This document shows positions 3,367 through 23,271 of a stretch of DNA of 64,000 bases, in pieces. Below the pieces are notes generated by a model, which ran no database searches, was not told the origin of the DNA, and saw only the letters and a program-made list of their open reading frames with translations. A program made the translations under genes and the position numbers. The first letter of the stretch is position 1. Each line of letters begins with the position of its first letter. The DNA comes from Escherichia phage phiP4, in the sequence record PP993145.1; one strand, given 5' to 3'.

Positions 3367-4119
3367 TTATCCAACTAGTGGTTCTAGCTCTAAGTCACAG
3401 AAGTTATAAACTTCTAGTTTAAGGTTATTGATACCATCGAATTTATTAACTAATTCGTGAGTAATATATTTTGCAGGAATACCACTTTCAGATGGATGAT
3501 CTGATTTAATAGTGAACTTCTGCTCAGCGGGCACTACATTTACTATCAAAGAATCCATATCTAAATGGTTTGTTTCTCTGAGTAACTCTCCTTCATTGGG
3601 GAATCTAACATCTGTTATTACGGCGACATCTGGGTCGTCTTTAGCGATGGATTGCTCCAGAATTATGAGCCAAATGCGTTCATGCACCAGCTGCCTTCCT
3701 AGCTCTGTCCCTACGAGCTGTAACATTTTTCTCGGAGAAATAAATAAACTATAAAGTCCGTCTTCTTTATTCTCTGAGATAAGTTGTTGAGGATTAAGGT
3801 ATTTTTCCTCAAAAATAGGCCAAACGTACGAGAAGTCTTCAAACTTATCGATACCGTACTTAAACCATACATCTCTGGCTCGCTCCAATTGAGATTGTGT
3901 GACCGTAAACCATTGGTCAATCTCTTTTCCTCTGCGCTCTCCTAGAAACTCTGGAGTTACACCGAGGATTACGGATGCAAGTTCATAAACTGGCTTAGCA
4001 AAACTATAACGACGAGAAAAACACGTTGGATACGTGTCATTACACCAATCGATAATTAATTTTGCAACGGTATCTTTTCCCGAACCAGCTTCACCATGTA
4101 AACCGACTAATACTGACAT
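3367..4119 (-). CDS. dnk: deoxynucleoside monophosphate kinase
   Basis: 250 aa; N-terminal P-loop GEAGSGKDT as in T4 gp1 / T5 dNMP kinase. Confidence 0.65.
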   Translation of the reverse strand: MSVLVGLHGEAGSGKDTVAKLIIDWCNDTYPTCFSRRYSFAKPVYELASVILGVTPEFLGERRGKEIDQWFTVTQSQLERARDVWFKYGIDKFEDFSYVWPIFEEKYLNPQQLISENKEDGLYSLFISPRKMLQLVGTELGRQLVHERIWLIILEQSIAKDDPDVAVITDVRFPNEGELLRETNHLDMDSLIVNVVPAEQKFTIKSDHPSESGIPAKYITHELVNKFDGINNLKLEVYNFCDLELEPLVG

Positions 4120-4472
4120 TAATCTTTCCTATTGTTAATTGGTGGATAATATACTAAACAACGTTTTTCTTGCAAATCTTGACGATAGAAGCAAACCATA
4201 CTTGTCAGTCGTGAAATATATGAATATTCTGCCTCACGGCATTTTGCCAACATATTCCAATCTTTATATGGTACAACAACTACTACGCCATCTTCTCCAT
4301 TTGTAGCTAATTTCTTTTCAAACTTAAAGTCAAAGCTACAAGGTTGAAGTCCTTTAGGCCAATCTACATGAGCTGTTGGTAACTCATGTGAGGGTTCTGA
4401 CTCTATTTCTTGTGCACAGCCTGTGATTGTGATTGCGGCTGCGAGCAGTATTCCAAGTTTCCAGTTAAACAT
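4119..4472 (-). CDS. lipoprotein (candidate outer-membrane spanin)
   Basis: Signal peptide with lipobox ITGC; overlaps the upstream membrane coiled-coil gene. Confidence 0.4.
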   Translation of the reverse strand: MFNWKLGILLAAAITITGCAQEIESEPSHELPTAHVDWPKGLQPCSFDFKFEKKLATNGEDGVVVVVPYKDWNMLAKCREAEYSYISRLTSMVCFYRQDLQEKRCLVYYPPINNRKD

Positions 4473-4852: not shown

Positions 4853-5507
4853 GCGCTGCTAACCTGTCTTTATCTGATACTTTAATCATATCAGGCTCAC
4901 CAGTTCCTAGTACACCGAAGATATACTGTTCGAGAACTTGGTGTAAACGGTATAAGTTACTTTCAATTTCCTGCCACGGAATACCTGACTGATGGAAACG
5001 AATGTTAGTCTGAATTACGAAGTTACGAACATCATCGTTATCGTTCTTTTTAATACCTTTCACATATGCAATCGGTACGCGCAGTTCGGATAAGATACGT
5101 TCTGCTTTAGGTTTTGCTTCAGCTAGCAGATCACGCATTGTTTCACGAACATCTCCACGACTCTTATCCATTAAGTAAGAGCGAGCATGCAATCCCATCT
5201 CTTCCATTTTATCGAACATAGTGTCGAGATTAAACGTTTTGAAGCTAAATGCTGGATGCCAGCAGTACAGCTCGTGTAACCAGTAAACTTCACCTGCAAC
5301 AAACAGTGGATTTACGAAGTATTCGAAATCACCACGGAAAGATAGTGAACCATCACGAAATACCTGGCGAGTATGCACAATGTTCTTTTCTGCATCATCG
5401 GTTACTTTAACCAGCAACTCCTCAGTTTTACGTTCCCACACACGATCTGGGTCGAACAAACTGTTCTGCAAATCATACACATCGGCGAACTTAGAAATAA
5501 TCCTCAT
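4809..5507 (-). CDS. hypothetical protein
   Basis: 232-aa ORF, no recognised motif. Confidence 0.5.
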   Translation of the reverse strand: MRIISKFADVYDLQNSLFDPDRVWERKTEELLVKVTDDAEKNIVHTRQVFRDGSLSFRGDFEYFVNPLFVAGEVYWLHELYCWHPAFSFKTFNLDTMFDKMEEMGLHARSYLMDKSRGDVRETMRDLLAEAKPKAERILSELRVPIAYVKGIKKNDNDDVRNFVIQTNIRFHQSGIPWQEIESNLYRLHQVLEQYIFGVLGTGEPDMIKVSDKDRLAAHGFDTKTSFRNMAR

Positions 5508-17721: not shown

Positions 17722-18291
17722 TTAGAAATTTAGCTTCATAGCAAGAAAATTTTTCAAGTTTTCGGTAGACATCTCATCCACATCTACAGGAGAAACAAAG
17801 CCGTTTAATTTTCTAGCAAATTTTTCACCTGCAGGGTCATTATCCCCGACAGCTACCAATTTAAAAGGTAATAATTTCAGTTGCTTTAATAACGCTTTTC
17901 CTGGAGAAGAACCCAACATTGCCAGGGCTGGATAACCAGCGTTATGTAACGCAACTGCCTTAAATACAGATTCAGCAATCAATACTACTTTTTCATCTCC
18001 ATTGAGAGTTTCTAGTCCCCATACACACTGGATAGTAGAATAAGTAAAATATTTAGCTTCAAATGGGCACTTACCATGACCTTTTGGAGCAGAAGGATTA
18101 TACGTCTGATAGCCTCTCAACATCCCAGAGAAGTCATACAACGGGACTGTTAGCCATCCTTCCGGACTTAACCAGCAATGATATTTATCTGTATCAAATC
18201 CTCTAGATAAGAGGTGCTGTGTTAGCTCATCAACATTCATATTTGGTTCCTCTCTCAAATTTATAGATATATTATACAGAGAATTTAGCAT
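17722..18291 (-). CDS. Toprim-domain protein (primase-core-like)
   Basis: 189 aa; conserved Glu segment VVLIAESVFKAVAL and DxD segment VAVGDNDPAGE typical of Toprim folds. Confidence 0.45.
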   Translation of the reverse strand: MLNSLYNISINLREEPNMNVDELTQHLLSRGFDTDKYHCWLSPEGWLTVPLYDFSGMLRGYQTYNPSAPKGHGKCPFEAKYFTYSTIQCVWGLETLNGDEKVVLIAESVFKAVALHNAGYPALAMLGSSPGKALLKQLKLLPFKLVAVGDNDPAGEKFARKLNGFVSPVDVDEMSTENLKNFLAMKLNF

Positions 18292-18450: not shown

Positions 18451-18506
18451 TATGGATGAGTGATCAAAGAGACACACATTTTCTATATACTAGGAGGTGT
18501 CAAAAA

Positions 18507-19493
18507 ATGACAGAAGAAGTAGCTAAGAGTCCTGAGACCGTCGCTAGCGTTGCAGCAGAACTGCACCGTCACGAGGAATCGGATAAGAAAAAGTGGGAGA
18601 AGGTCAGAGCCTACGAAGAGAAACATCGCGAACACGACGATGAAGAAGATGACGATGATGAACATTGTCATAAATATGGAAAACATAAAATGCAAGAACC
18701 AGTAAACGTATTCACTAGTGGCTTCCCTGGCCTACTGGGTGGTTACCCAGCAAACGCAGGTGCTTTCGGTGGTGAAGGTATGGGACTATTCGGAGCTATC
18801 CTAATCGGTGCTCTATTAACAGGCGGATTCGGTGGTTTCGGTGGATTCGGTGGACGTGGTGTAGTTGGTGATGGTACCGCAGTTGATGCAGTACTTCAGA
18901 ACCAAGATACCGCTAGTATTCTAGCAGCTATTAACACTACTCGTACAGAAGCTAACCAGGGTACTGGAGCTGTTTTAAGCGCAGTTAACAATGGTTTTAG
19001 CCAGACATCCCAAAACCAGAGCCGTGATACTCAGTCTGTACTAACTACGATCTATGGTACAGGTGCTAATCTGTCTAATCAGATCTGCCAGGAAACTCGC
19101 AACGTTATTCAGGGTCAGTTCGATCTTTCTCGCCAGATTGATCAATCTTTCGCAGCTAACCAGATAGCTCGTGCACAAGATAAGTTTGATTCTGCACAGA
19201 TCGCTTTCCAGCAGACTTTACAAACTAATAACCAGTTTGCCGCTGTTCAGGCTCAGATGTGTGCTAACCAGAACTCTCTGGAACGTCAGATCGCTGAATG
19301 TTGCTGTGAACTTCAGACTGCGATCGCTGGTGTAACTACTGCGCGTATCCAGGATGAGTTAGACGCATGTCGCCTACGTGAAGCAATCGCTGCTGGTAGC
19401 GGTGCTAACGGTCAGGTAATTAATCAAATCGCTTTAAGTCTTGGTGCTATCACTCAGACTCTGGCTGGTCTGCAGGCTAAACTGCCGGCTTAA
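18507..19493 (+). CDS. Gly-rich membrane protein with Gln/Asn-rich C-terminal region
   Basis: Start ATG after AGGAGG; charged N-terminus, glycine-zipper TM (GLFGAILIGALLTGGFGGFGGFGG), long Q/N/A/T-rich domain; host-like codon usage. Confidence 0.6.
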   Translation: MTEEVAKSPETVASVAAELHRHEESDKKKWEKVRAYEEKHREHDDEEDDDDEHCHKYGKHKMQEPVNVFTSGFPGLLGGYPANAGAFGGEGMGLFGAILIGALLTGGFGGFGGFGGRGVVGDGTAVDAVLQNQDTASILAAINTTRTEANQGTGAVLSAVNNGFSQTSQNQSRDTQSVLTTIYGTGANLSNQICQETRNVIQGQFDLSRQIDQSFAANQIARAQDKFDSAQIAFQQTLQTNNQFAAVQAQMCANQNSLERQIAECCCELQTAIAGVTTARIQDELDACRLREAIAAGSGANGQVINQIALSLGAITQTLAGLQAKLPA

Positions 19494-19514
19494 TATTAAG
19501 GGGAGGAGCCCATT

Positions 19515-19919
19515 ATGAGTAAATATGGTTTTGTAAATAACGGACTTAATCAAAGTATGGGCTCCCAGCAGCCCATGCCGGGTCTGGATAACCCCTACTT
19601 ACAACAGTTGCAACAGCGTTTAGCAGAAGCGCAACAGATGCAGCAACAACTCCAGCAAAACCCTGGAAGTGTGAGTCCTATGCAAATGATGCAGCAAATG
19701 AGCGGGCAGTCGCAAATGCCTCAACAAATGCAGCAACAGGTGCCGCAGCAGCAAACCCAACAACCGCAGGTTTCTGCGGAAGGACAGGCAGTACTAGCCC
19801 TTTTCGAAGACTTCGCAAAGACAGAGGATGGGAAACAGCTTGTATCACTTATGGGTAAGTTTAATAGCTTCTGCCAAAGCCAAGTTGCAAAAGCTCAAAA
19901 TGGTGGTAATAACTCCTAA
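19515..19919 (+). CDS. Gln-rich low-complexity protein
   Basis: 134 aa, MQQ/QQL repeats; strong RBS GGGGAGGAG. Confidence 0.5.
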   Translation: MSKYGFVNNGLNQSMGSQQPMPGLDNPYLQQLQQRLAEAQQMQQQLQQNPGSVSPMQMMQQMSGQSQMPQQMQQQVPQQQTQQPQVSAEGQAVLALFEDFAKTEDGKQLVSLMGKFNSFCQSQVAKAQNGGNNS

Positions 19920-19928
19920 GGAGGAATT

Positions 19929-20123
19929 ATGTGTTGCAGAAAATCTGTTTCGTGCTGCCCAATGCCTGTAACACGTTGTTGCTCTCCAGCAATGTTTACG
20001 CAAATACCGGCGTTCAATCCGTTTGCCTTTAAACCTATTCTTATCCTGCCCCCTAGAGTAGATTTTCAGTCAAGATTGGCCTCCCGTATGGGTGGTTGCT
20101 GTACACCGAGAGTGTGGTTCTAA
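19929..20123 (+). CDS. small Cys-rich protein
   Basis: 64 aa with CC pairs (MCCRK..CC..CC..GGCC); RBS AAGGAGG. Confidence 0.45.
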   Translation: MCCRKSVSCCPMPVTRCCSPAMFTQIPAFNPFAFKPILILPPRVDFQSRLASRMGGCCTPRVWF

Positions 20124-20137
20124 ACCAAAAAACAAAA

Positions 20138-20170
20138 GCCCCTGCCGAAAGGTAAGGGGCTTTTTCTTTT
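20138..20170 (+). terminator. rho-independent terminator (plus-strand unit)
   Basis: Hairpin gcccct-gccgaaaggta-aggggc followed by TTTTTCTTTT. Confidence 0.65.
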
Positions 20171-20184
20171 GCCTTAAATACAGA

Positions 20185-20220
20185 AAAGCCCGCGCTCTCG
20201 GAGGAAACGCGGGCTTGGTT
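20185..20220 (-). terminator. rho-independent terminator (SPFH gene)
   Basis: Hairpin agcccgcg...cgcgggct with T-run on minus strand, downstream of 20240..21187. Confidence 0.6.
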
Positions 20221-20239: not shown

Positions 20240-21187
20240 TTACTTGTTACGCATATCCATGATCATTTGACCATCGTAGCCAGTACCTACCACAGTCTGA
20301 GGCACACCACCTTGATACTTCTGAGCACGAATCATTTCAACTTCCAGTTGCTTCCAGCGAATCATCTCAGGAGTAATGGTACGTTGCAATGCGGCGTTAG
20401 CTTCAGCTTCTTTTTTAGCTGCGTACAGTTTAGCATCTGCGTCACGTTCGTTAGCAATAGCCTGGTTATTACGGGCTTCACGGTCTGCTTCTGCCTGTTT
20501 AACTTTTTGCTGTGCTTCTTGTTCAACACGAGCCAACTCAGCTTTTGCAGCATTAACTTGCTCTTCACGAACTTTGGTATTCTGTACCTGTTCCATGATT
20601 ACTGGTGGCAGAGTAATATCCTGAAGGAATACCTGCTTAACTGTGTAACCATATGGGCGTGCATACTCTTCAACTTCTTGTTGAATTGCAGTTTGCAATT
20701 GAGCCTGAATTTTAGCATCAAACAAATCTTGTGCTTTAGGTACAGACTTACCAAACTCACGAATAGTAGACAGTAATTTTTCAGTTACATATTTGTCTAA
20801 CGCTTGATCCTGAGTACCCGCATTAATACGGTTAATCGGTGCCTTAGAACCATCAAACTGCAACATAACAGTCAGGTCAACAGTGGATTTAAACTTATCC
20901 TGGCTAGGAACCTGAAGTTTATCTAATTTTACAGCAATATCTTTTGTACTAAAAGTATCGAAAGATGCAAATGGGTTTACAAGATGGAAACCCGGTAATA
21001 CTGGGTTAGGATCTACTTTACCCAGAAATGTTTGGGTTTTAACCGTACCATCAGAAACAATAGTATATGAATTAAAGGCTAGAATCAAGCCTGCTAAACC
21101 AACTACAGCACCAATACCCCAACGTTTAATAGTACGAATTACTTTCTGCTCAGAAGTCAGTTCTTTCATATTTTTAGTATTAAACAT
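20240..21187 (-). CDS. SPFH/band-7 (stomatin-prohibitin-HflK/C-like) membrane protein
   Basis: 315 aa; N-terminal TM helix, SPFH-like core, C-terminal coiled coil rich in A/E/Q/K/R (AEADREARNNQAIANERDADAKL). Confidence 0.65.
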   Translation of the reverse strand: MFNTKNMKELTSEQKVIRTIKRWGIGAVVGLAGLILAFNSYTIVSDGTVKTQTFLGKVDPNPVLPGFHLVNPFASFDTFSTKDIAVKLDKLQVPSQDKFKSTVDLTVMLQFDGSKAPINRINAGTQDQALDKYVTEKLLSTIREFGKSVPKAQDLFDAKIQAQLQTAIQQEVEEYARPYGYTVKQVFLQDITLPPVIMEQVQNTKVREEQVNAAKAELARVEQEAQQKVKQAEADREARNNQAIANERDADAKLYAAKKEAEANAALQRTITPEMIRWKQLEVEMIRAQKYQGGVPQTVVGTGYDGQMIMDMRNK

Positions 21188-21221
21188 ATATTTCCTTTGT
21201 TTTAGTTACAGTTAATAAAAT

Positions 21222-21296
21222 TGGCCGAGGTGACAGGATTCGAACCTGCATAAAGGAATTTAGAAGACTCCTGCCTCTCCCTTAGACTACACCCCG
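21222..21296 (-). tRNA. tRNA-Arg (UCU)
   Basis: Acceptor CGGGGTG/CACCTCG, T-arm GCAGG-TTCGAAT-CCTGT, anticodon arm GGAGT-CTTCTAA-ATTCC. Confidence 0.6.
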
Positions 21297-21798
21297 TTTA
21301 AGTATTTTTAAGAACTCTCGTAAAAACTCTTAAAAATACAGACGATACCGGGAGAGTCATAAGTCTCACTCATTAAGTATTTCAAGACAAAATACAGTAA
21401 CGTCTATTATTTTCCAGTTTAAGTCAAGGTGACTTAGTGGTTATGTCCTGCGGTATATTGAGGACTCGGTTAGGCTTGGGGTCATGACTTCCCGCCTTTT
21501 GCTGCTACTCAACAGGAGTTATCGCGAATTACCTGTGCTATTGTGCACCATTAGTGACATCTCTCATGTCAGCATTTCCCACTTTGTGGATAGCTTGAAA
21601 AACTACTCCGATATGGAGAAAGAACTTCACTATCCTAGAATACCTTCTAAAGTTCTTCTTTAGCCTGGACATAGTTAAATCGTAATAAAACTATTCAGCA
21701 GACTGGTTGGTTAGTCTGGAACCAACTACCGCGTGGTTTAGGCAGTGCGCAACTAACCTCGGAAGCTTTTACGTTAAAAGCATCAGTTATCCAGTTCT

Positions 21799-21870
21799 TA
21801 CCGACCGTAGGATTCGAACCTACATCTTCCACCAGTTACGGCTTGATAATACCAATTATACTAGGACGGC
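21799..21870 (-). ncRNA. tRNA-like element (possible pseudo-tRNA)
   Basis: T-arm GTAGG-TTCGAAT-CCTAC and near-complementary acceptor strands, but the anticodon arm does not fold. Confidence 0.3.
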
Positions 21871-22089
21871 AGTGTTACTACATAAGTGATTTCCACACCC
21901 CACTATTTATAAATTAGAGAAGAGTTTAAGGGAGAGGTTTCAGACGCCTCATTTTACACGTTCTAGCCACTAACCGGGATTGCCGCCCCCTGTGTACTAG
22001 TTTTACAACTAACCCACCGACTCTATTCAATGCGCTCCGGTTGGGATTCTGCACTCAGCGTAATCGGCTCGCTGTTCCCTAATTTATGA

Positions 22090-22125
22090 ATATATTATAC
22101 ATAATTTATAAGCATTTAGCAAATG
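22090..22125 (-). promoter_or_regulatory. T5-type early promoter driving leftward transcription into the tRNA region
   Basis: Minus-strand TTGCTA (22117-22122), 17-bp spacer, TATAAT (22094-22099). Confidence 0.5.
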
Positions 22126-22130
22126 AATTT

Positions 22131-22565
22131 TTAGAAAAATTCACTAGCAATCAAAGCAGTTGTTTTACCGTCATAACGTCCAGGAAATTCTGCCTTAATA
22201 GTTTTCATTAAAAGAGCTTTGGTAATTCCTGGATTTAATTTAACCAGTTCTGCAAAATACTCACGAATTTCAGTTTCAGTCAGTTGACTTGGCTGATACT
22301 CTTGCAGCATGGAATAAAGCAGTTGCTCATAGTCTACATCAGTAGGAACTTTCATACCAACTTTAATAGCGCGCTGTTTTGCATTTTCTAGAGCCTTAAT
22401 CTGAGCTTTCAGATAGGCTACGAACTCGGTTCGAGTAACAATGTCTTTATCAATACGTTGCAGATCACCAATCATGGTCTGAAGATTAAGTGCCCGCTCT
22501 TTATCACCGTGAGTACGTGCTAGACTAAGCAGTCCACGAAGGGTCATTAGGATATTTTCACCCAT
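22131..22565 (-). CDS. hypothetical protein
   Basis: 144-aa ORF. Confidence 0.45.
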   Translation of the reverse strand: MGENILMTLRGLLSLARTHGDKERALNLQTMIGDLQRIDKDIVTRTEFVAYLKAQIKALENAKQRAIKVGMKVPTDVDYEQLLYSMLQEYQPSQLTETEIREYFAELVKLNPGITKALLMKTIKAEFPGRYDGKTTALIASEFF

Positions 22566-22803: not shown

Positions 22804-23271
22804 TTAAGTTTTAGTGACAACAGGTTTATAGAATGTATGTCCCTTAATCTTAGTTGTTTTCTTAAATTTCTTTGTCCAGTAAGGTTTATCTTTACCACTA
22901 TGGAAGTATAGTGCTCCATGTGTAGGATCTTGTGGTAAATCAACGTAGTATATCACTCTAGCTAAATTCTTAGCTGTTTGCCAAGCCTCATCAGTTTTAT
23001 CAACTTTTGGTCTCTTAGATACCCAAGAGAACTGGTTAGACTGATATACTACTTTACAGTAGGAATCTGGGAATTTACCGGAGTTTACACGGTTTTTAGT
23101 AACATGTGCAATCGCCGTCATTCCCTTTATGCCCTCACCACGACTTTCGAAATAGATATTTTTAGCAATGCAATCTATTTCTTTTGCATCGTGCGATGCC
23201 TGACTACTAAAGCTGAAGGTAAGGGCAGCTACTAAAAGCAAAGCTGCCTTCATTCTTTTTACTCCTGCCAA
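22804..23271 (-). CDS. secreted cell wall hydrolase (SleB/Hydrolase_2-like)
   Basis: 155 aa; signal peptide, conserved segments NIYFESRGE, AIAHVTKNR, YCKVVYQSNQFSW. Confidence 0.6.
   Translation of the reverse strand: MAGVKRMKAALLLVAALTFSFSSQASHDAKEIDCIAKNIYFESRGEGIKGMTAIAHVTKNRVNSGKFPDSYCKVVYQSNQFSWVSKRPKVDKTDEAWQTAKNLARVIYYVDLPQDPTHGALYFHSGKDKPYWTKKFKKTTKIKGHTFYKPVVTKT

What the first reader, a model, noticed from the sequence alone, without database searches (positions are those of the whole stretch)
20240..21187. Phage-encoded SPFH/band-7 (prohibitin/HflK-like) membrane protein convergent with the plus-strand unit
N-terminal TM helix, SPFH-like core and a long charged coiled coil. SPFH proteins organise membrane microdomains and regulate membrane proteases such as FtsH; a phage copy could modulate host membrane proteolysis or lysis timing. 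It shares the host-like codon usage of the neighbouring plus-strand unit and is separated from it by back-to-back terminators.
Basis: partly seen in the sequence, partly recalled or inferred. Interest (0 to 1): 0.5.

Follow-up and report, generated by a model that had tools for sequence, protein, structure and literature searches.

The report
T5-type phage SPFH membrane scaffold gene
This is the already-catalogued band-7/SPFH membrane protein gene of T5-like phages (ortholog of T5.080): its identity is solid, it is strongly conserved yet dispensable in the laboratory, and what it does during infection is still unknown.

Summary
The ORF at 20240-21187 (-) is real and encodes a 315-aa SPFH/band-7 protein: Pfam Band_7 E=2e-17, and a full-length fold match to the erlin, prohibitin, HflK/C, stomatin and QmcA cage proteins. 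It has one N-terminal TM helix, an SPFH core, a 76-residue charged helix and a conserved C-tail.

The window is a T5-like phage, and the gene is the ortholog of T5.080. That gene was annotated "band 7 protein" in T5 record AY587007 and is mislabelled "lipoprotein" elsewhere; the protein has no cysteine.

- **Transcription:** it appears to be made from an early promoter-like site, in one unit with a stable-RNA region and tRNA-Arg. It ends at two hairpin terminators facing the plus-strand unit.
- **Distribution:** it occurs in about as many Markadamsvirinae records as a marker gene. Copies 30-78% identical are in T4-like, Privateervirus, Lahexavirus and T7-like phages.
- **Selection:** dN/dS against T5 is 0.008.
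- **Dispensability:** T5 CRISPRi-ART scores it "Not Fit", and phages BF23 and NG_S8 carry deletions.

Not supported: host-like codon usage (GC3 0.286, phage-typical), linkage to the plus-strand unit (741 versus 223 records), and HflK/HflC membership.

The best reading is an accessory inner-membrane SPFH scaffold. Its target (FtsH, lysis, counter-defence) is untested. It is known and of modest interest.

The parts
20240..21187 (-). CDS of the 315-aa SPFH/band-7 protein, ortholog of T5.080 (ORF075 of AY587007); includes the stop codon at 20240-20242
   Evidence: ORF list. Pfam Band_7 E=2e-17. PHROG 200 E=1.7e-86. T5 annotations. dN/dS 0.008 against T5.
21119..21187 (-). Codons 1-23: basic N-terminal tail (6 K/R, 2 D/E), inferred to be cytoplasmic
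   Evidence: The orientation is an inference (control).
21059..21118 (-). Codons 24-43: the single predicted transmembrane helix
   Evidence: Hydropathy maximum 1.79. It lies inside AF2 helix 12-39.
20513..21034 (-). Codons 52-225: SPFH/Band_7 domain as matched by Pfam
   Evidence: The beta/alpha core is at 41-192 in the AF2 model.
20378..20605 (-). Codons 195-270: long charged helix, the equivalent of the coiled-coil wall of SPFH cages
   Evidence: AF2 helix 195-270. 36% charged. It aligns to the coiled-coil regions of QmcA and prohibitin.
20243..20317 (-). Codons 291-315: conserved Gly/beta-prone C-terminal tail, a candidate cap-forming segment
   Evidence: Y291, G293, P296, T298 and G301 are nearly invariant. 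pLDDT is below 50 in the monomer model. The cap role is inferred by analogy.
21193..21197 (-). Shine-Dalgarno AAGGA, 5 nt before the ATG
   Evidence: Sequence. An RBS is annotated at the same place in phages Lindwurm and BF23.
21222..21296 (-). tRNA-Arg(TCT), 34 nt upstream of the ATG, inferred to be co-transcribed with the SPFH gene
   Evidence: ARAGORN. Rfam tRNA 49.3 bits. The same arrangement is in T5 and BF23.
21297..22093 (-). Untranslated 'RNAX' stable-RNA region of the same transcription unit; contains a tRNA-like element at 21799-21870
   Evidence: T5 and BF23 records annotate RNAX here. Rfam tRNA 35.5 bits. AY587007 marks a tRNA pseudogene at the equivalent place.
22094..22122 (-). 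Sigma-70 promoter-like site (TTGCTA, 17 nt, TATAAT), at the position of T5 promoter P16-17
   Evidence: Scan. The T5 and BF23 records place promoter P16-17 over the 3' end of the T5.081 homologue.
20176..20216 (-). Hairpin 2 plus U-tract: the terminator reached first by the SPFH transcript. It carries the A|GCGC motif at the position where T5 and BF23 records mark a single-strand nick.
   Evidence: Terminator scan. Fold -20.7 kcal/mol, z = -3.2. Nick annotations. Motif at 20196.
20134..20164 (.). Hairpin 1: bidirectional terminator flanked by A and T runs, shared with the plus-strand unit
   Evidence: Folds at -21.4 and -21.5 kcal/mol on the two strands. Annotated as a bidirectional terminator in T5 and BF23.

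Best explanation
The gene encodes the T5.080-type phage SPFH (stomatin/prohibitin/flotillin/HflKC, band-7) protein.

Shown here:
- It is a single-pass membrane protein with the full architecture of cage-forming SPFH proteins: TM helix, SPFH core, long coiled-coil helix, short second helix and a conserved C-tail.
- It is strongly conserved.
- It is spread across several families of phages, many of them known virulent types.
- It is non-essential under laboratory conditions.

Inferred:
- It is made early in infection by host RNA polymerase, from the P16-17-type promoter, as the distal part of an RNAX / tRNA-Arg / SPFH transcript. tRNA processing then frees the mRNA.
- It inserts into the host inner membrane with its basic N-tail in the cytoplasm and its SPFH domain in the periplasm.
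- It self-assembles into a homo-oligomeric ring or dome that fences off a patch of inner membrane.

My committed guess for its role is that the cage conditions the host inner membrane for the phage. It would do so by corralling or shielding membrane proteins, whether host proteases such as FtsH or membrane-acting stress or defence effectors. That would make it a conditionally useful accessory factor rather than a core replication or lysis component.
For: Identity:
- Pfam Band_7 E=2e-17.
- PDB sequence hits to QmcA (1.8e-6) and prohibitin-2 (8.6e-5); the family profile gives the same ranking.
- AF2 model with mean pLDDT 76.5 and the expected order of elements.
- Foldseek full-length matches at probability 1.00 to erlin1/2, PHB1/2, HflK/C, stomatin, QmcA and flotillin cages, E down to 1e-14.
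- Viral SPFH proteins in BFVD.

Orthology: T5.080, ORF075 'band 7 protein' of AY587007, and BF23 'ORF trn 1.1'.

Transcription unit:
- Promoter-like site at 22122-22094 and the terminators.
- Only 34 nt separate the tRNA-Arg from the ATG.
- The record annotations agree.

Constraint and spread:
- dN/dS 0.008.
- 438 records at 80% identity or more, against 437 for a Markadamsvirinae marker gene.
- Copies 30-78% identical in Straboviridae, Grimontviridae, Lahexavirus and a T7-like Aeromonas phage contig.

Accessory status:
- T5.080 is 'Not Fit' in CRISPRi-ART: 7 guides, P=0.85 (PMC11879866 supplement).
- A BF23 stock lost ORF071-075 (PMC10644984).
- NG_S8 keeps only codons 1-18 fused to 274-315.

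Neighbourhood: the gene lies next to Rad and the tRNA-rich 'anti-defence island'.

Orientation: the N-tail carries 6 K/R. HflK and HflC, taken as N-in from established knowledge, also have K/R in the N-flank; QmcA, taken as N-out, has none.
Against: - No experiment addresses localisation, oligomerisation or partners. A 2026 paper still calls the presence of SPFH genes in phages unexplained (PMC13239085).
- The simple flank-charge difference does not separate HflC from QmcA in my control, so the periplasmic orientation rests only on the basic N-tail.
- By sequence the protein is closer to cytoplasm-facing QmcA than to HflK/C.
- No partner gene is conserved across phage families.
- There are no PADLOC or NCBIfam hits.
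- The retron-evasion papers searched do not name this gene among the determinants; I could not tell whether their fragments covered it.
- The monomer model says nothing about cage formation.
Confidence: 0.6

Rival explanations
1. It is an HflK/HflC mimic. The phage protein builds a periplasm-facing cage that captures or re-tunes host FtsH, or co-assembles with HflKC. This would change turnover of membrane proteins, of LpxC or of phage proteins.
For: - It has the same overall fold and length as HflK/C chains in FtsH-HflKC structures (7vhq, 7wi3, 9cz2 at probability 1.0).
- Its basic N-tail suggests the same N-in orientation as HflK/HflC.
Against: - No NCBIfam hit of any kind, so none to an HflK or HflC model if that library holds one.
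- BLASTP to HflC and HflK gives E=0.13 and 0.27; the family profile scores them 18.3 and 1.1 bits against 32.9 for QmcA.
- It is a single gene, not a K/C pair.
- About 17% structural-alignment identity to HflK/C chains makes co-assembly unlikely.
- Knockdown has no fitness cost in the laboratory.
- Nothing here tests FtsH binding.
Confidence: 0.15
2. It is a counter-defence or membrane-protection factor. The cage would stabilise the inner membrane, or sequester membrane-acting abortive-infection or stress effectors. It would then matter only in hosts that carry such systems.
For: - In T5-likes it sits beside Rad (retron anti-defence) and the tRNA-rich 'anti-defence island'.
- In phage Miller it lies next to an NMN-adenylyltransferase/Nudix gene, and in P59 and LAh_6 near RNA-repair ligases.
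- Its profile fits conditional usefulness: accessory, laterally exchanged, strongly constrained and dispensable in laboratory strains.
Against: - This is pure guilt by association. These regions are mixed bags of accessory genes.
- No Rad or other shared neighbour lies within about 4 kb in the other families.
- The protein is not in PADLOC.
- The literature search returned no paper linking SPFH proteins to defence or anti-defence.
Confidence: 0.2
3. It is a regulator of lysis timing or of superinfection exclusion. The cage would corral holins or antiholins, or block DNA entry of competing phages at the inner membrane.
For: - In T4-like phages the gene lies in the tk-rI interval, adjacent to or 3 kb from rI (lysis inhibition).
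- In the Vi01-like phage PhiSH19 an SPFH gene is next to a 'superinfection exclusion protein' (PMC3220722).
- Small single-TM ORFs follow the gene in four non-T5 contexts.
Against: - From my own knowledge, not tested here, the tk-rI region is a hyperplastic region of T4-like genomes.
- No holin or principal endolysin gene is annotated within about 3 kb of the T5 copy; a secreted SleB-type wall hydrolase labelled 'endolysin' lies about 1.6 kb away.
- Its upstream promoter is of the early type.
- No small TM ORF follows it in T5-likes.
- No data exist.
Confidence: 0.1
4. It is a lipoprotein, as RefSeq T5, PHROG 200 and many phage records name it.
For: The label 'lipoprotein' appears in NC_005859, in PHROG 200 and in dozens of records.
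Against: - The protein has no cysteine at all.
- 111 of 117 close family members have none, and none of them has a lipobox in the first 45 residues.
- The N-terminus is a basic tail plus an uncleaved TM helix.
- From the literature, the real T5 receptor-blocking lipoprotein Llp is a different gene, next to the receptor-binding protein gene.
Confidence: 0.01

Closest known systems
Phage T5 gene T5.080 (YP_006908.1), ORF075 of AY587007 ('putative transmembrane protein, IPR001107 band 7 protein'), and BF23 'ORF trn 1.1'
   Same: - It is the ortholog: the same 948-nt length, pN 0.003 against T5, and 100% identical proteins in other T5-like phages.
- The position is the same, between tRNA-Arg/RNAX and the bidirectional terminator and nick site.
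   Different: Only synonymous drift (dS 0.35 against T5). The window phage is another Markadamsvirinae isolate.
SPFH genes of T4-like and other phages: RB43 ORF139c, 44RR ORF098c, Aeh1 ORF064c (Nolan et al. 2006, PMC1524935), Citrobacter phage Miller gp141, Proteus phage P59 gp116
   Same: - The same family (PHROG 200), 61-78% identical over nearly the full length, with the same TM + SPFH + coiled-coil + C-tail layout.
- They also lie among accessory and nucleotide-metabolism genes.
   Different: - The genomic neighbours differ: the tk-rI interval in T4-likes, RtcB and an ATPase in P59.
- Several are followed by a small TM ORF that T5-likes lack.
- None is co-transcribed with a tRNA as far as the annotations show.
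E. coli QmcA (SPFH partner of the NfeD protein YbbJ; PDB 8z5g)
   Same: It is the best solved-structure sequence match (E=1.8e-6; profile 3e-7; BLASTP 23% identity, 1.8e-8). It is of similar length with an N-terminal TM anchor.
   Different: - QmcA has no N-terminal tail (its TM starts at residue 2), and from established knowledge it faces the cytoplasm. The phage protein has a 23-residue basic tail.
- qmcA is paired with ybbJ. None of the five neighbouring ORFs scanned matched an NfeD family in Pfam, and the annotated neighbours in the five other phage contexts carry no NfeD label.
E. coli HflK/HflC, modulators of FtsH
   Same: The same superfamily and cage-type architecture by fold, and probably the same N-in orientation (inferred).
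   Different: - No significant sequence similarity and no NCBIfam hit of any kind.
- A single gene rather than a heteromeric pair.
- No evidence of FtsH interaction.
Eukaryotic prohibitins, erlins and stomatin, and SPFH genes of giant viruses
   Same: The top Foldseek matches over the full length. Virus-encoded SPFH proteins are common in BFVD, including Marseillevirus, Tupanvirus, Mimivirus and Pandoravirus.
   Different: About 15-20% identity in different host membranes. The relation is at superfamily level only.

Membership tests
SPFH / Band 7 superfamily (Pfam PF01145) | Profile-HMM match above the curated gathering score | tested here: met
   64.2 bits against a cut-off of 23.6, E=2e-17, residues 52-225, profile positions 13-176 of 176.
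SPFH / Band 7 superfamily (Pfam PF01145) | Alpha/beta SPFH core followed by a long coiled-coil helix, matching solved SPFH subunits | tested here: met
   AF2 model. Foldseek probability 1.00 over about 270-320 aligned columns to erlin, prohibitin, HflK/C, stomatin, QmcA and flotillin.
SPFH / Band 7 superfamily (Pfam PF01145) | Membrane attachment through an N-terminal hydrophobic segment | tested here: met
   A single hydrophobic stretch at residues 24-43, with a TM-like segment in 249 of 254 family members examined. This is a prediction only.
SPFH / Band 7 superfamily (Pfam PF01145) | Assembly into large oligomeric rings or cages | not testable with these tools
   Only monomer prediction was available. 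The conserved C-tail is compatible with assembly but is not evidence for it.
HflK/HflC regulators of FtsH | Sequence membership: a curated family-model match, or significant similarity to HflK or HflC | tested here: not met
   No NCBIfam hit of any kind at E<=0.1. BLASTP E=0.13 for HflC and 0.27 for HflK; profile scores 18.3 and 1.1 bits. No HflK/C chain appears in the PDB sequence search at E<=1.
HflK/HflC regulators of FtsH | Two adjacent paralogous genes forming a heteromer | tested here: not met
   A single SPFH gene, with tRNA-Arg upstream and a terminator downstream.
HflK/HflC regulators of FtsH | Type II topology: N-terminus in the cytoplasm, SPFH domain in the periplasm | tested here: inconclusive
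   The N-tail has 6 K/R, like HflK and HflC and unlike QmcA. However, the flank-charge difference metric fails to separate HflC from QmcA.
HflK/HflC regulators of FtsH | Physical binding to and modulation of FtsH | not testable with these tools
   This needs pull-down or degradation assays.
QmcA/stomatin-type SPFH with an NfeD partner | An adjacent NfeD-family gene in the same operon | tested here: not met
   E. coli qmcA-ybbJ are paired. The window neighbours are a tRNA and a terminator. None of the five nearby ORFs scanned matched an NfeD family in Pfam, and the annotated neighbours in the five other phage contexts carry no NfeD label. The rest of the genome was not scanned for NfeD.
Bacterial lipoproteins (the label this gene carries in many records) | Signal peptide ending in a lipobox with an invariant cysteine | tested here: not met
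   Zero cysteines in the protein. No lipobox in the close family.
PHROG 200 (phage SPFH family, named 'lipoprotein') | Full-length profile match | tested here: met
   E=1.7e-86, residues 4-314 against profile positions 66-361 of 379.

The most novel reading that the evidence does not exclude
The phage SPFH protein builds a virus-made cage on the periplasmic face of the host inner membrane. That cage would act as a counter-defence or take-over device. It might trap host FtsH as an HflKC mimic, or it might neutralise membrane-acting abortive-infection or envelope-stress effectors. Either would explain a gene that is under extreme purifying selection, is exchanged between unrelated phage families, and is dispensable on defence-poor laboratory strains.
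Probability: 0.2. Interest if true: 0.6.

Novelty: already known. Interest (0 to 1): 0.25.

Why it matters
SPFH cages are currently a very active structural topic; HflK/C-FtsH, QmcA-YbbJ, prohibitin, erlin, stomatin and flotillin structures date from 2022-2026. No function is known for the virus-encoded ones. This family is a good test case:
- It is found in about as many T5-like (Markadamsvirinae) phage records as a marker gene.
- It is highly constrained.
- It has moved laterally among phages of Enterobacteria, Aeromonas and Vibrio.
- It is non-essential in the laboratory, so clean deletions are feasible in a tractable model phage, T5.

A practical point also follows. The widespread 'lipoprotein' annotation is wrong and should read 'SPFH domain-containing membrane protein'. 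As a discovery, however, this window adds nothing new to what the databases already hold.

Tried and rejected
- **NCBIfam and PADLOC scans:** no hits, so there is no equivalog name and no defence-system link.
- **Foldseek against afdb50:** the library was unavailable.
- **Linkage to the adjacent plus-strand unit:** rejected. T5.077 homologues are in 223 records, T5-like in every sampled row, against 741 records with the SPFH gene.
- **Conserved neighbours in other phage families:** I ran tblastn of 12 window proteins against five loci. The only hit was a partial SleB-like match in P59; there was no Rad and no plus-strand genes.
- **Host-like codon usage:** rejected.
- **Positive-inside rule as a flank K/R difference:** it leans N-in in the family (61 versus 8, with 48 ties). 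It misclassifies E. coli HflC in a control, so I rely only on the presence of a basic N-tail.
- **Literature:** searches on SPFH with T5, with phage-encoded genes, with superinfection exclusion and with anti-phage defence found no functional study.
- **Retron anti-defence island:** whether the ~8 kb island deleted in T5n and SP15m includes this gene could not be settled from text alone.
- **Weak Pfam and PHROG hits** (Band_7_1, DUF4407, phrog_11227 'protease'): below threshold or probably compositional matches to the coiled coil.
Full report
**What the window is.** The 3.1 kb around the finding is 97% identical to many T5-like phages of Salmonella and Escherichia, such as PS3-1, T5_ev212, BB1 and Lindwurm. 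In all, 438 phage records match it. The window also carries 22 tRNA genes in the arrangement typical of T5. Comparison with the two annotated T5 records and an old BF23 record places the finding exactly on T5.080. That gene is ORF075 of AY587007 and 'ORF trn 1.1' of BF23.

**The observation.**
- An ATG-to-stop ORF of 315 codons lies at 20240-21187 on the minus strand. It has an AAGGA ribosome-binding site 5 nt upstream.
- Pfam Band_7 (PF01145) matches residues 52-225 at E=2e-17, 64.2 bits against a gathering score of 23.6.
- PHROG 200 matches the full length at E=1.7e-86.
- Sequence search of the PDB finds E. coli QmcA (1.8e-6) and human prohibitins. A profile built from 28 family members gives the same ranking.
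- An AlphaFold2 model (mean pLDDT 76.5) shows a helix at 12-39 that contains the only hydrophobic segment (residues 24-43). It also shows a beta/alpha core at 41-192, one 76-residue helix at 195-270, a second helix at 273-290 and an unmodelled C-tail.
- Foldseek aligns the whole model at probability 1.00 to subunits of the erlin, prohibitin, HflK/C, stomatin, QmcA and flotillin cages.
- The long helix is 36% charged.

**Convergent arrangement and terminators.** The plus-strand genes end at 20123 and the SPFH gene ends at 20240. The 116 bp between them hold two hairpins.
- Hairpin 1 (20134-20164) has an A-run on one side and a T-run on the other. It folds at -21.4 and -21.5 kcal/mol on the two strands, so it is a bidirectional terminator.
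- Hairpin 2 (20186-20216) has a U-tract only on the minus strand (-20.7 kcal/mol). It is the first terminator the SPFH transcript meets.
- T5 and BF23 records annotate the same features.

**What is wrong in the observation.** The SPFH gene does not have host-like codon usage. Its GC is 0.400 and its GC3 is 0.286. The means for 67 window ORFs are 0.393 and 0.318, and its GC3 ranks 47th of 67. Only the plus-strand genes are GC-shifted, at 0.465-0.469, and for T5.077 this is mostly not at third positions.

**The transcription unit (inferred).**
- Only 34 nt separate the 3' end of tRNA-Arg(TCT) (21222-21296) from the ATG, which leaves no room for a promoter.
- Upstream lies about 800 nt without a convincing ORF. 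T5 and BF23 records call this region 'RNAX, stable RNA'. It contains a tRNA-like element at 21799-21870 (Rfam 35.5 bits), which AY587007 marks as a tRNA pseudogene.
- A TTGCTA-17-TATAAT site at 22122-22094 coincides with the annotated T5 promoter P16-17.
- The protein is therefore most likely translated from the distal part of an early RNAX / tRNA-Arg / SPFH transcript.

**Is it a working gene?** Yes. Against T5 the gene has dS 0.35 but dN 0.003, so dN/dS is 0.008. Against the T4-like phage Miller dN/dS is about 0.07. Fifty-four columns are invariant across 28 sequences that go down to 56% identity. These include VPSQDK, several core positions and a conserved C-terminal Y-G-P-T-G pattern.

**Distribution.**
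- tblastn finds the gene in 741 phage records.
- About 438 of these are at 80% identity or more. A Markadamsvirinae marker, the T5.087 exonuclease, is found at that level in 437 records. The two counts are essentially equal, which suggests the gene is near-universal in that subfamily; record-by-record overlap was not checked.
- Copies 74-78% identical are in T4-like phages of Klebsiella, Citrobacter and Cronobacter and in Proteus Privateervirus.
- Copies 59-64% identical are in Aeromonas T4-likes. A 48% identical copy sits in the replication module of a T7-like Aeromonas phage contig.
- Copies about 30-35% identical are in Lahexavirus and Vibrio phages.
- An exhaustive profile search of 1.84 billion representative proteins returns only 2006 hits at E<=1e-3 and 85 at E<=1e-30. 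This is a small, distinct SPFH subfamily.
- In every context I inspected the gene was phage-borne. A few cluster members are filed under bacterial names, namely Aeromonas caviae, A. enteropelogenes and Vibrio makurazakiensis, and I did not look at those contexts. Other members of the Aeromonas cluster sit on contigs of up to about 47 kb. The representative I did inspect lies on a 38.8-kb T7-like phage contig.
- SPFH proteins are also common in other viruses, including giant viruses.

**No link to the neighbouring plus-strand unit.** The T5.077 homologue occurs in 223 records, and every sampled row was a T5-like genome. Roughly half of the T5-likes and all other families carry the SPFH gene without it. 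No window neighbour recurs near the gene in five other phage contexts, apart from a partial SleB-like match in P59.

**Naming.** 'Lipoprotein' (RefSeq T5, PHROG 200 and many other records) is wrong. The protein has no cysteine. Of 117 close relatives, 111 have none, and none of them has a lipobox. 'HflK-like' is also not justified.
- There is no NCBIfam match of any kind.
- E. coli HflC and HflK give BLASTP E=0.13 and 0.27, against 1.8e-8 for QmcA. The family profile scores them 18.3 and 1.1 bits, against 32.9 for QmcA.
- There is one gene rather than a K/C pair, and no NfeD partner as in qmcA-ybbJ.

The accurate name is 'SPFH domain-containing membrane protein'.

**Orientation.** The N-tail (residues 1-23) has 6 K/R and 2 D/E.
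- In the close family the N-flank has more K/R than the C-flank in 61 members, the same number in 48 and fewer in 8.
- As a control I applied the same metric to E. coli HflK and HflC (N-in and periplasmic, from established knowledge) and to QmcA (N-out and cytoplasmic, likewise).
- The flank difference does not separate them, because the first SPFH strand is basic in all three. The presence of K/R in the N-tail does separate them: HflK 2, HflC 2, QmcA 0.
- I therefore infer, with moderate confidence, that the N-terminus is in the cytoplasm and the SPFH domain is in the periplasm.

**Experimental knowledge.** I found no functional study. A 2026 paper states that the reason SPFH genes occur in phages 'remains unclear' (PMC13239085). 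The domain itself was recognised long ago: 'band 7 protein' in AY587007 and the SPFH hits of RB43, 44RR and Aeh1 ORFs in Nolan et al. 2006 (PMC1524935). Three lines show the gene is dispensable in the laboratory.
- In the genome-wide CRISPRi-ART screen of T5, T5.080 is 'Not Fit': 7 guides, fitness -4.28, P=0.85 (PMC11879866 supplement).
- The BF23 stock sequenced in 2023 has lost ORF071-075 (PMC10644984). By the AY587007 numbering this runs from the TOPRIM gene to the band-7 gene. An older BF23 record still has the region.
- The Epseptimavirus NG_S8 retains only codons 1-18 fused to 274-315.

**Neighbourhood.** The adjacent 189-aa TOPRIM gene (17722-18291) is Rad, a retron anti-defence protein. 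The tRNA-rich stretch beside it has been called an anti-defence island. In other families the SPFH gene sits among accessory genes.
- In T4-likes it lies in the tk-rI interval, next to an NMN-adenylyltransferase/Nudix gene in Miller.
- In P59 it is next to RtcB and an ATPase.
- In LAh_6 it is near an RNA ligase.

They are suggestive of an accessory, possibly counter-defence role, but it is association only.

**Most likely mechanism.**
- *Shown:* this is an SPFH membrane protein with the complete cage-type architecture. It is strongly constrained, laterally mobile and non-essential in the laboratory.
- *Inferred:* it is expressed early. It inserts into the inner membrane with a periplasmic SPFH domain. 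It assembles into a homo-oligomeric ring or dome that encloses a membrane patch.
- *Speculative:* the target. I rank membrane protection or counter-defence at about 0.2, FtsH/HflKC mimicry at about 0.15, and lysis timing or superinfection exclusion at about 0.1.

None of these targets can be tested with sequence tools.

**Verdict.** The finding is real and correctly identified at the domain level. It is already present in the public annotation of T5 and hundreds of relatives. One secondary claim (codon usage) is wrong, and two implied links (HflK membership and coupling to the plus-strand unit) are not supported. Interest is modest. The open question of what phage SPFH cages do is genuine and tractable in T5, but this window adds no new element to it.

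Noticed in passing
window 17722-18291 (-): The 189-aa TOPRIM protein (Pfam Toprim_2; PHROG 'DNA primase') corresponds to T5.076, ORF071 of AY587007. The literature identifies this as Rad, an inhibitor of retron defence (bioRxiv 10.1101/2023.03.15.532788; PMC10644984). It scores 'Semi-Fit' in T5 CRISPRi-ART. The 'primase' label is probably misleading.
   Followed up: partly
window 18456-20123 (+): A three-gene plus-strand unit with raised GC (0.465-0.469).
- T5.077-like, 345 aa: acidic N-terminus, a Gly-rich hydrophobic stretch (GLFGAILIGALLTGGFGGFGGFGG) and a Q/N/T-rich helical C-terminal half.
- T5.078-like, 134 aa: Q-rich.
- T5.079-like, 64 aa: four CC doublets.

None has a Pfam, NCBIfam or PADLOC hit above threshold. 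T5.077 homologues are in 223 records, T5-like in every sampled row. All three are 'Not Fit' in CRISPRi-ART. Function is unknown.
   Followed up: partly
window 21799-21870 (-): Rfam finds a second tRNA-like element (35.5 bits, above the gathering score of 29) inside the 'RNAX' region. ARAGORN did not report it. AY587007 marks a tRNA pseudogene at the equivalent place.
   Followed up: partly
window 20191-20196 (-), inside hairpin 2: The motif A|GCGC on the minus strand sits at the position where T5 and BF23 records annotate the major 32.6% single-strand nick. The motif alone is not rare: there are 17 RGCGC sites on this strand in the window. Whether this phage is nicked here is unknown.
   Followed up: partly
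window 22804-23271 (-): A SleB-type cell-wall hydrolase (Pfam Hydrolase_2, E=2.4e-25) with an apparent N-terminal signal peptide, labelled 'endolysin' in T5 records. It is a secreted wall hydrolase 1.6 kb from the SPFH gene. A partial homologue lies 0.7 kb from the SPFH gene in Proteus phage P59 (L004 5617-5766).
   Followed up: no
L010 6942-7034; L007 4382-4519; L006 4391-4609; L003 about 4985-5083 (unannotated): In four non-T5 phage contexts the SPFH gene is followed directly by a small ORF (30-72 aa) encoding a single hydrophobic helix. These are not alike in sequence. In Miller the ORF is not annotated. T5-likes have a terminator at that position instead. This could be chance, because small TM ORFs are common in phages.
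   Followed up: partly
L005 (Escherichia coli phage NG_S8, LC788711) 3962-4129: This isolated Epseptimavirus carries an in-frame remnant of the SPFH gene (codons 1-18 fused to 274-315). It also lacks the plus-strand unit and the Rad gene found in the window.
   Followed up: yes
window 22131-22565 (-): A YqeY/GatB-like 144-aa protein (PHROG 1460 'tRNA amidotransferase'; Pfam YqeY below threshold) ends a few bases before the promoter-like site of the SPFH unit. It sits at the edge of the tRNA region. Function is unknown.
   Followed up: no
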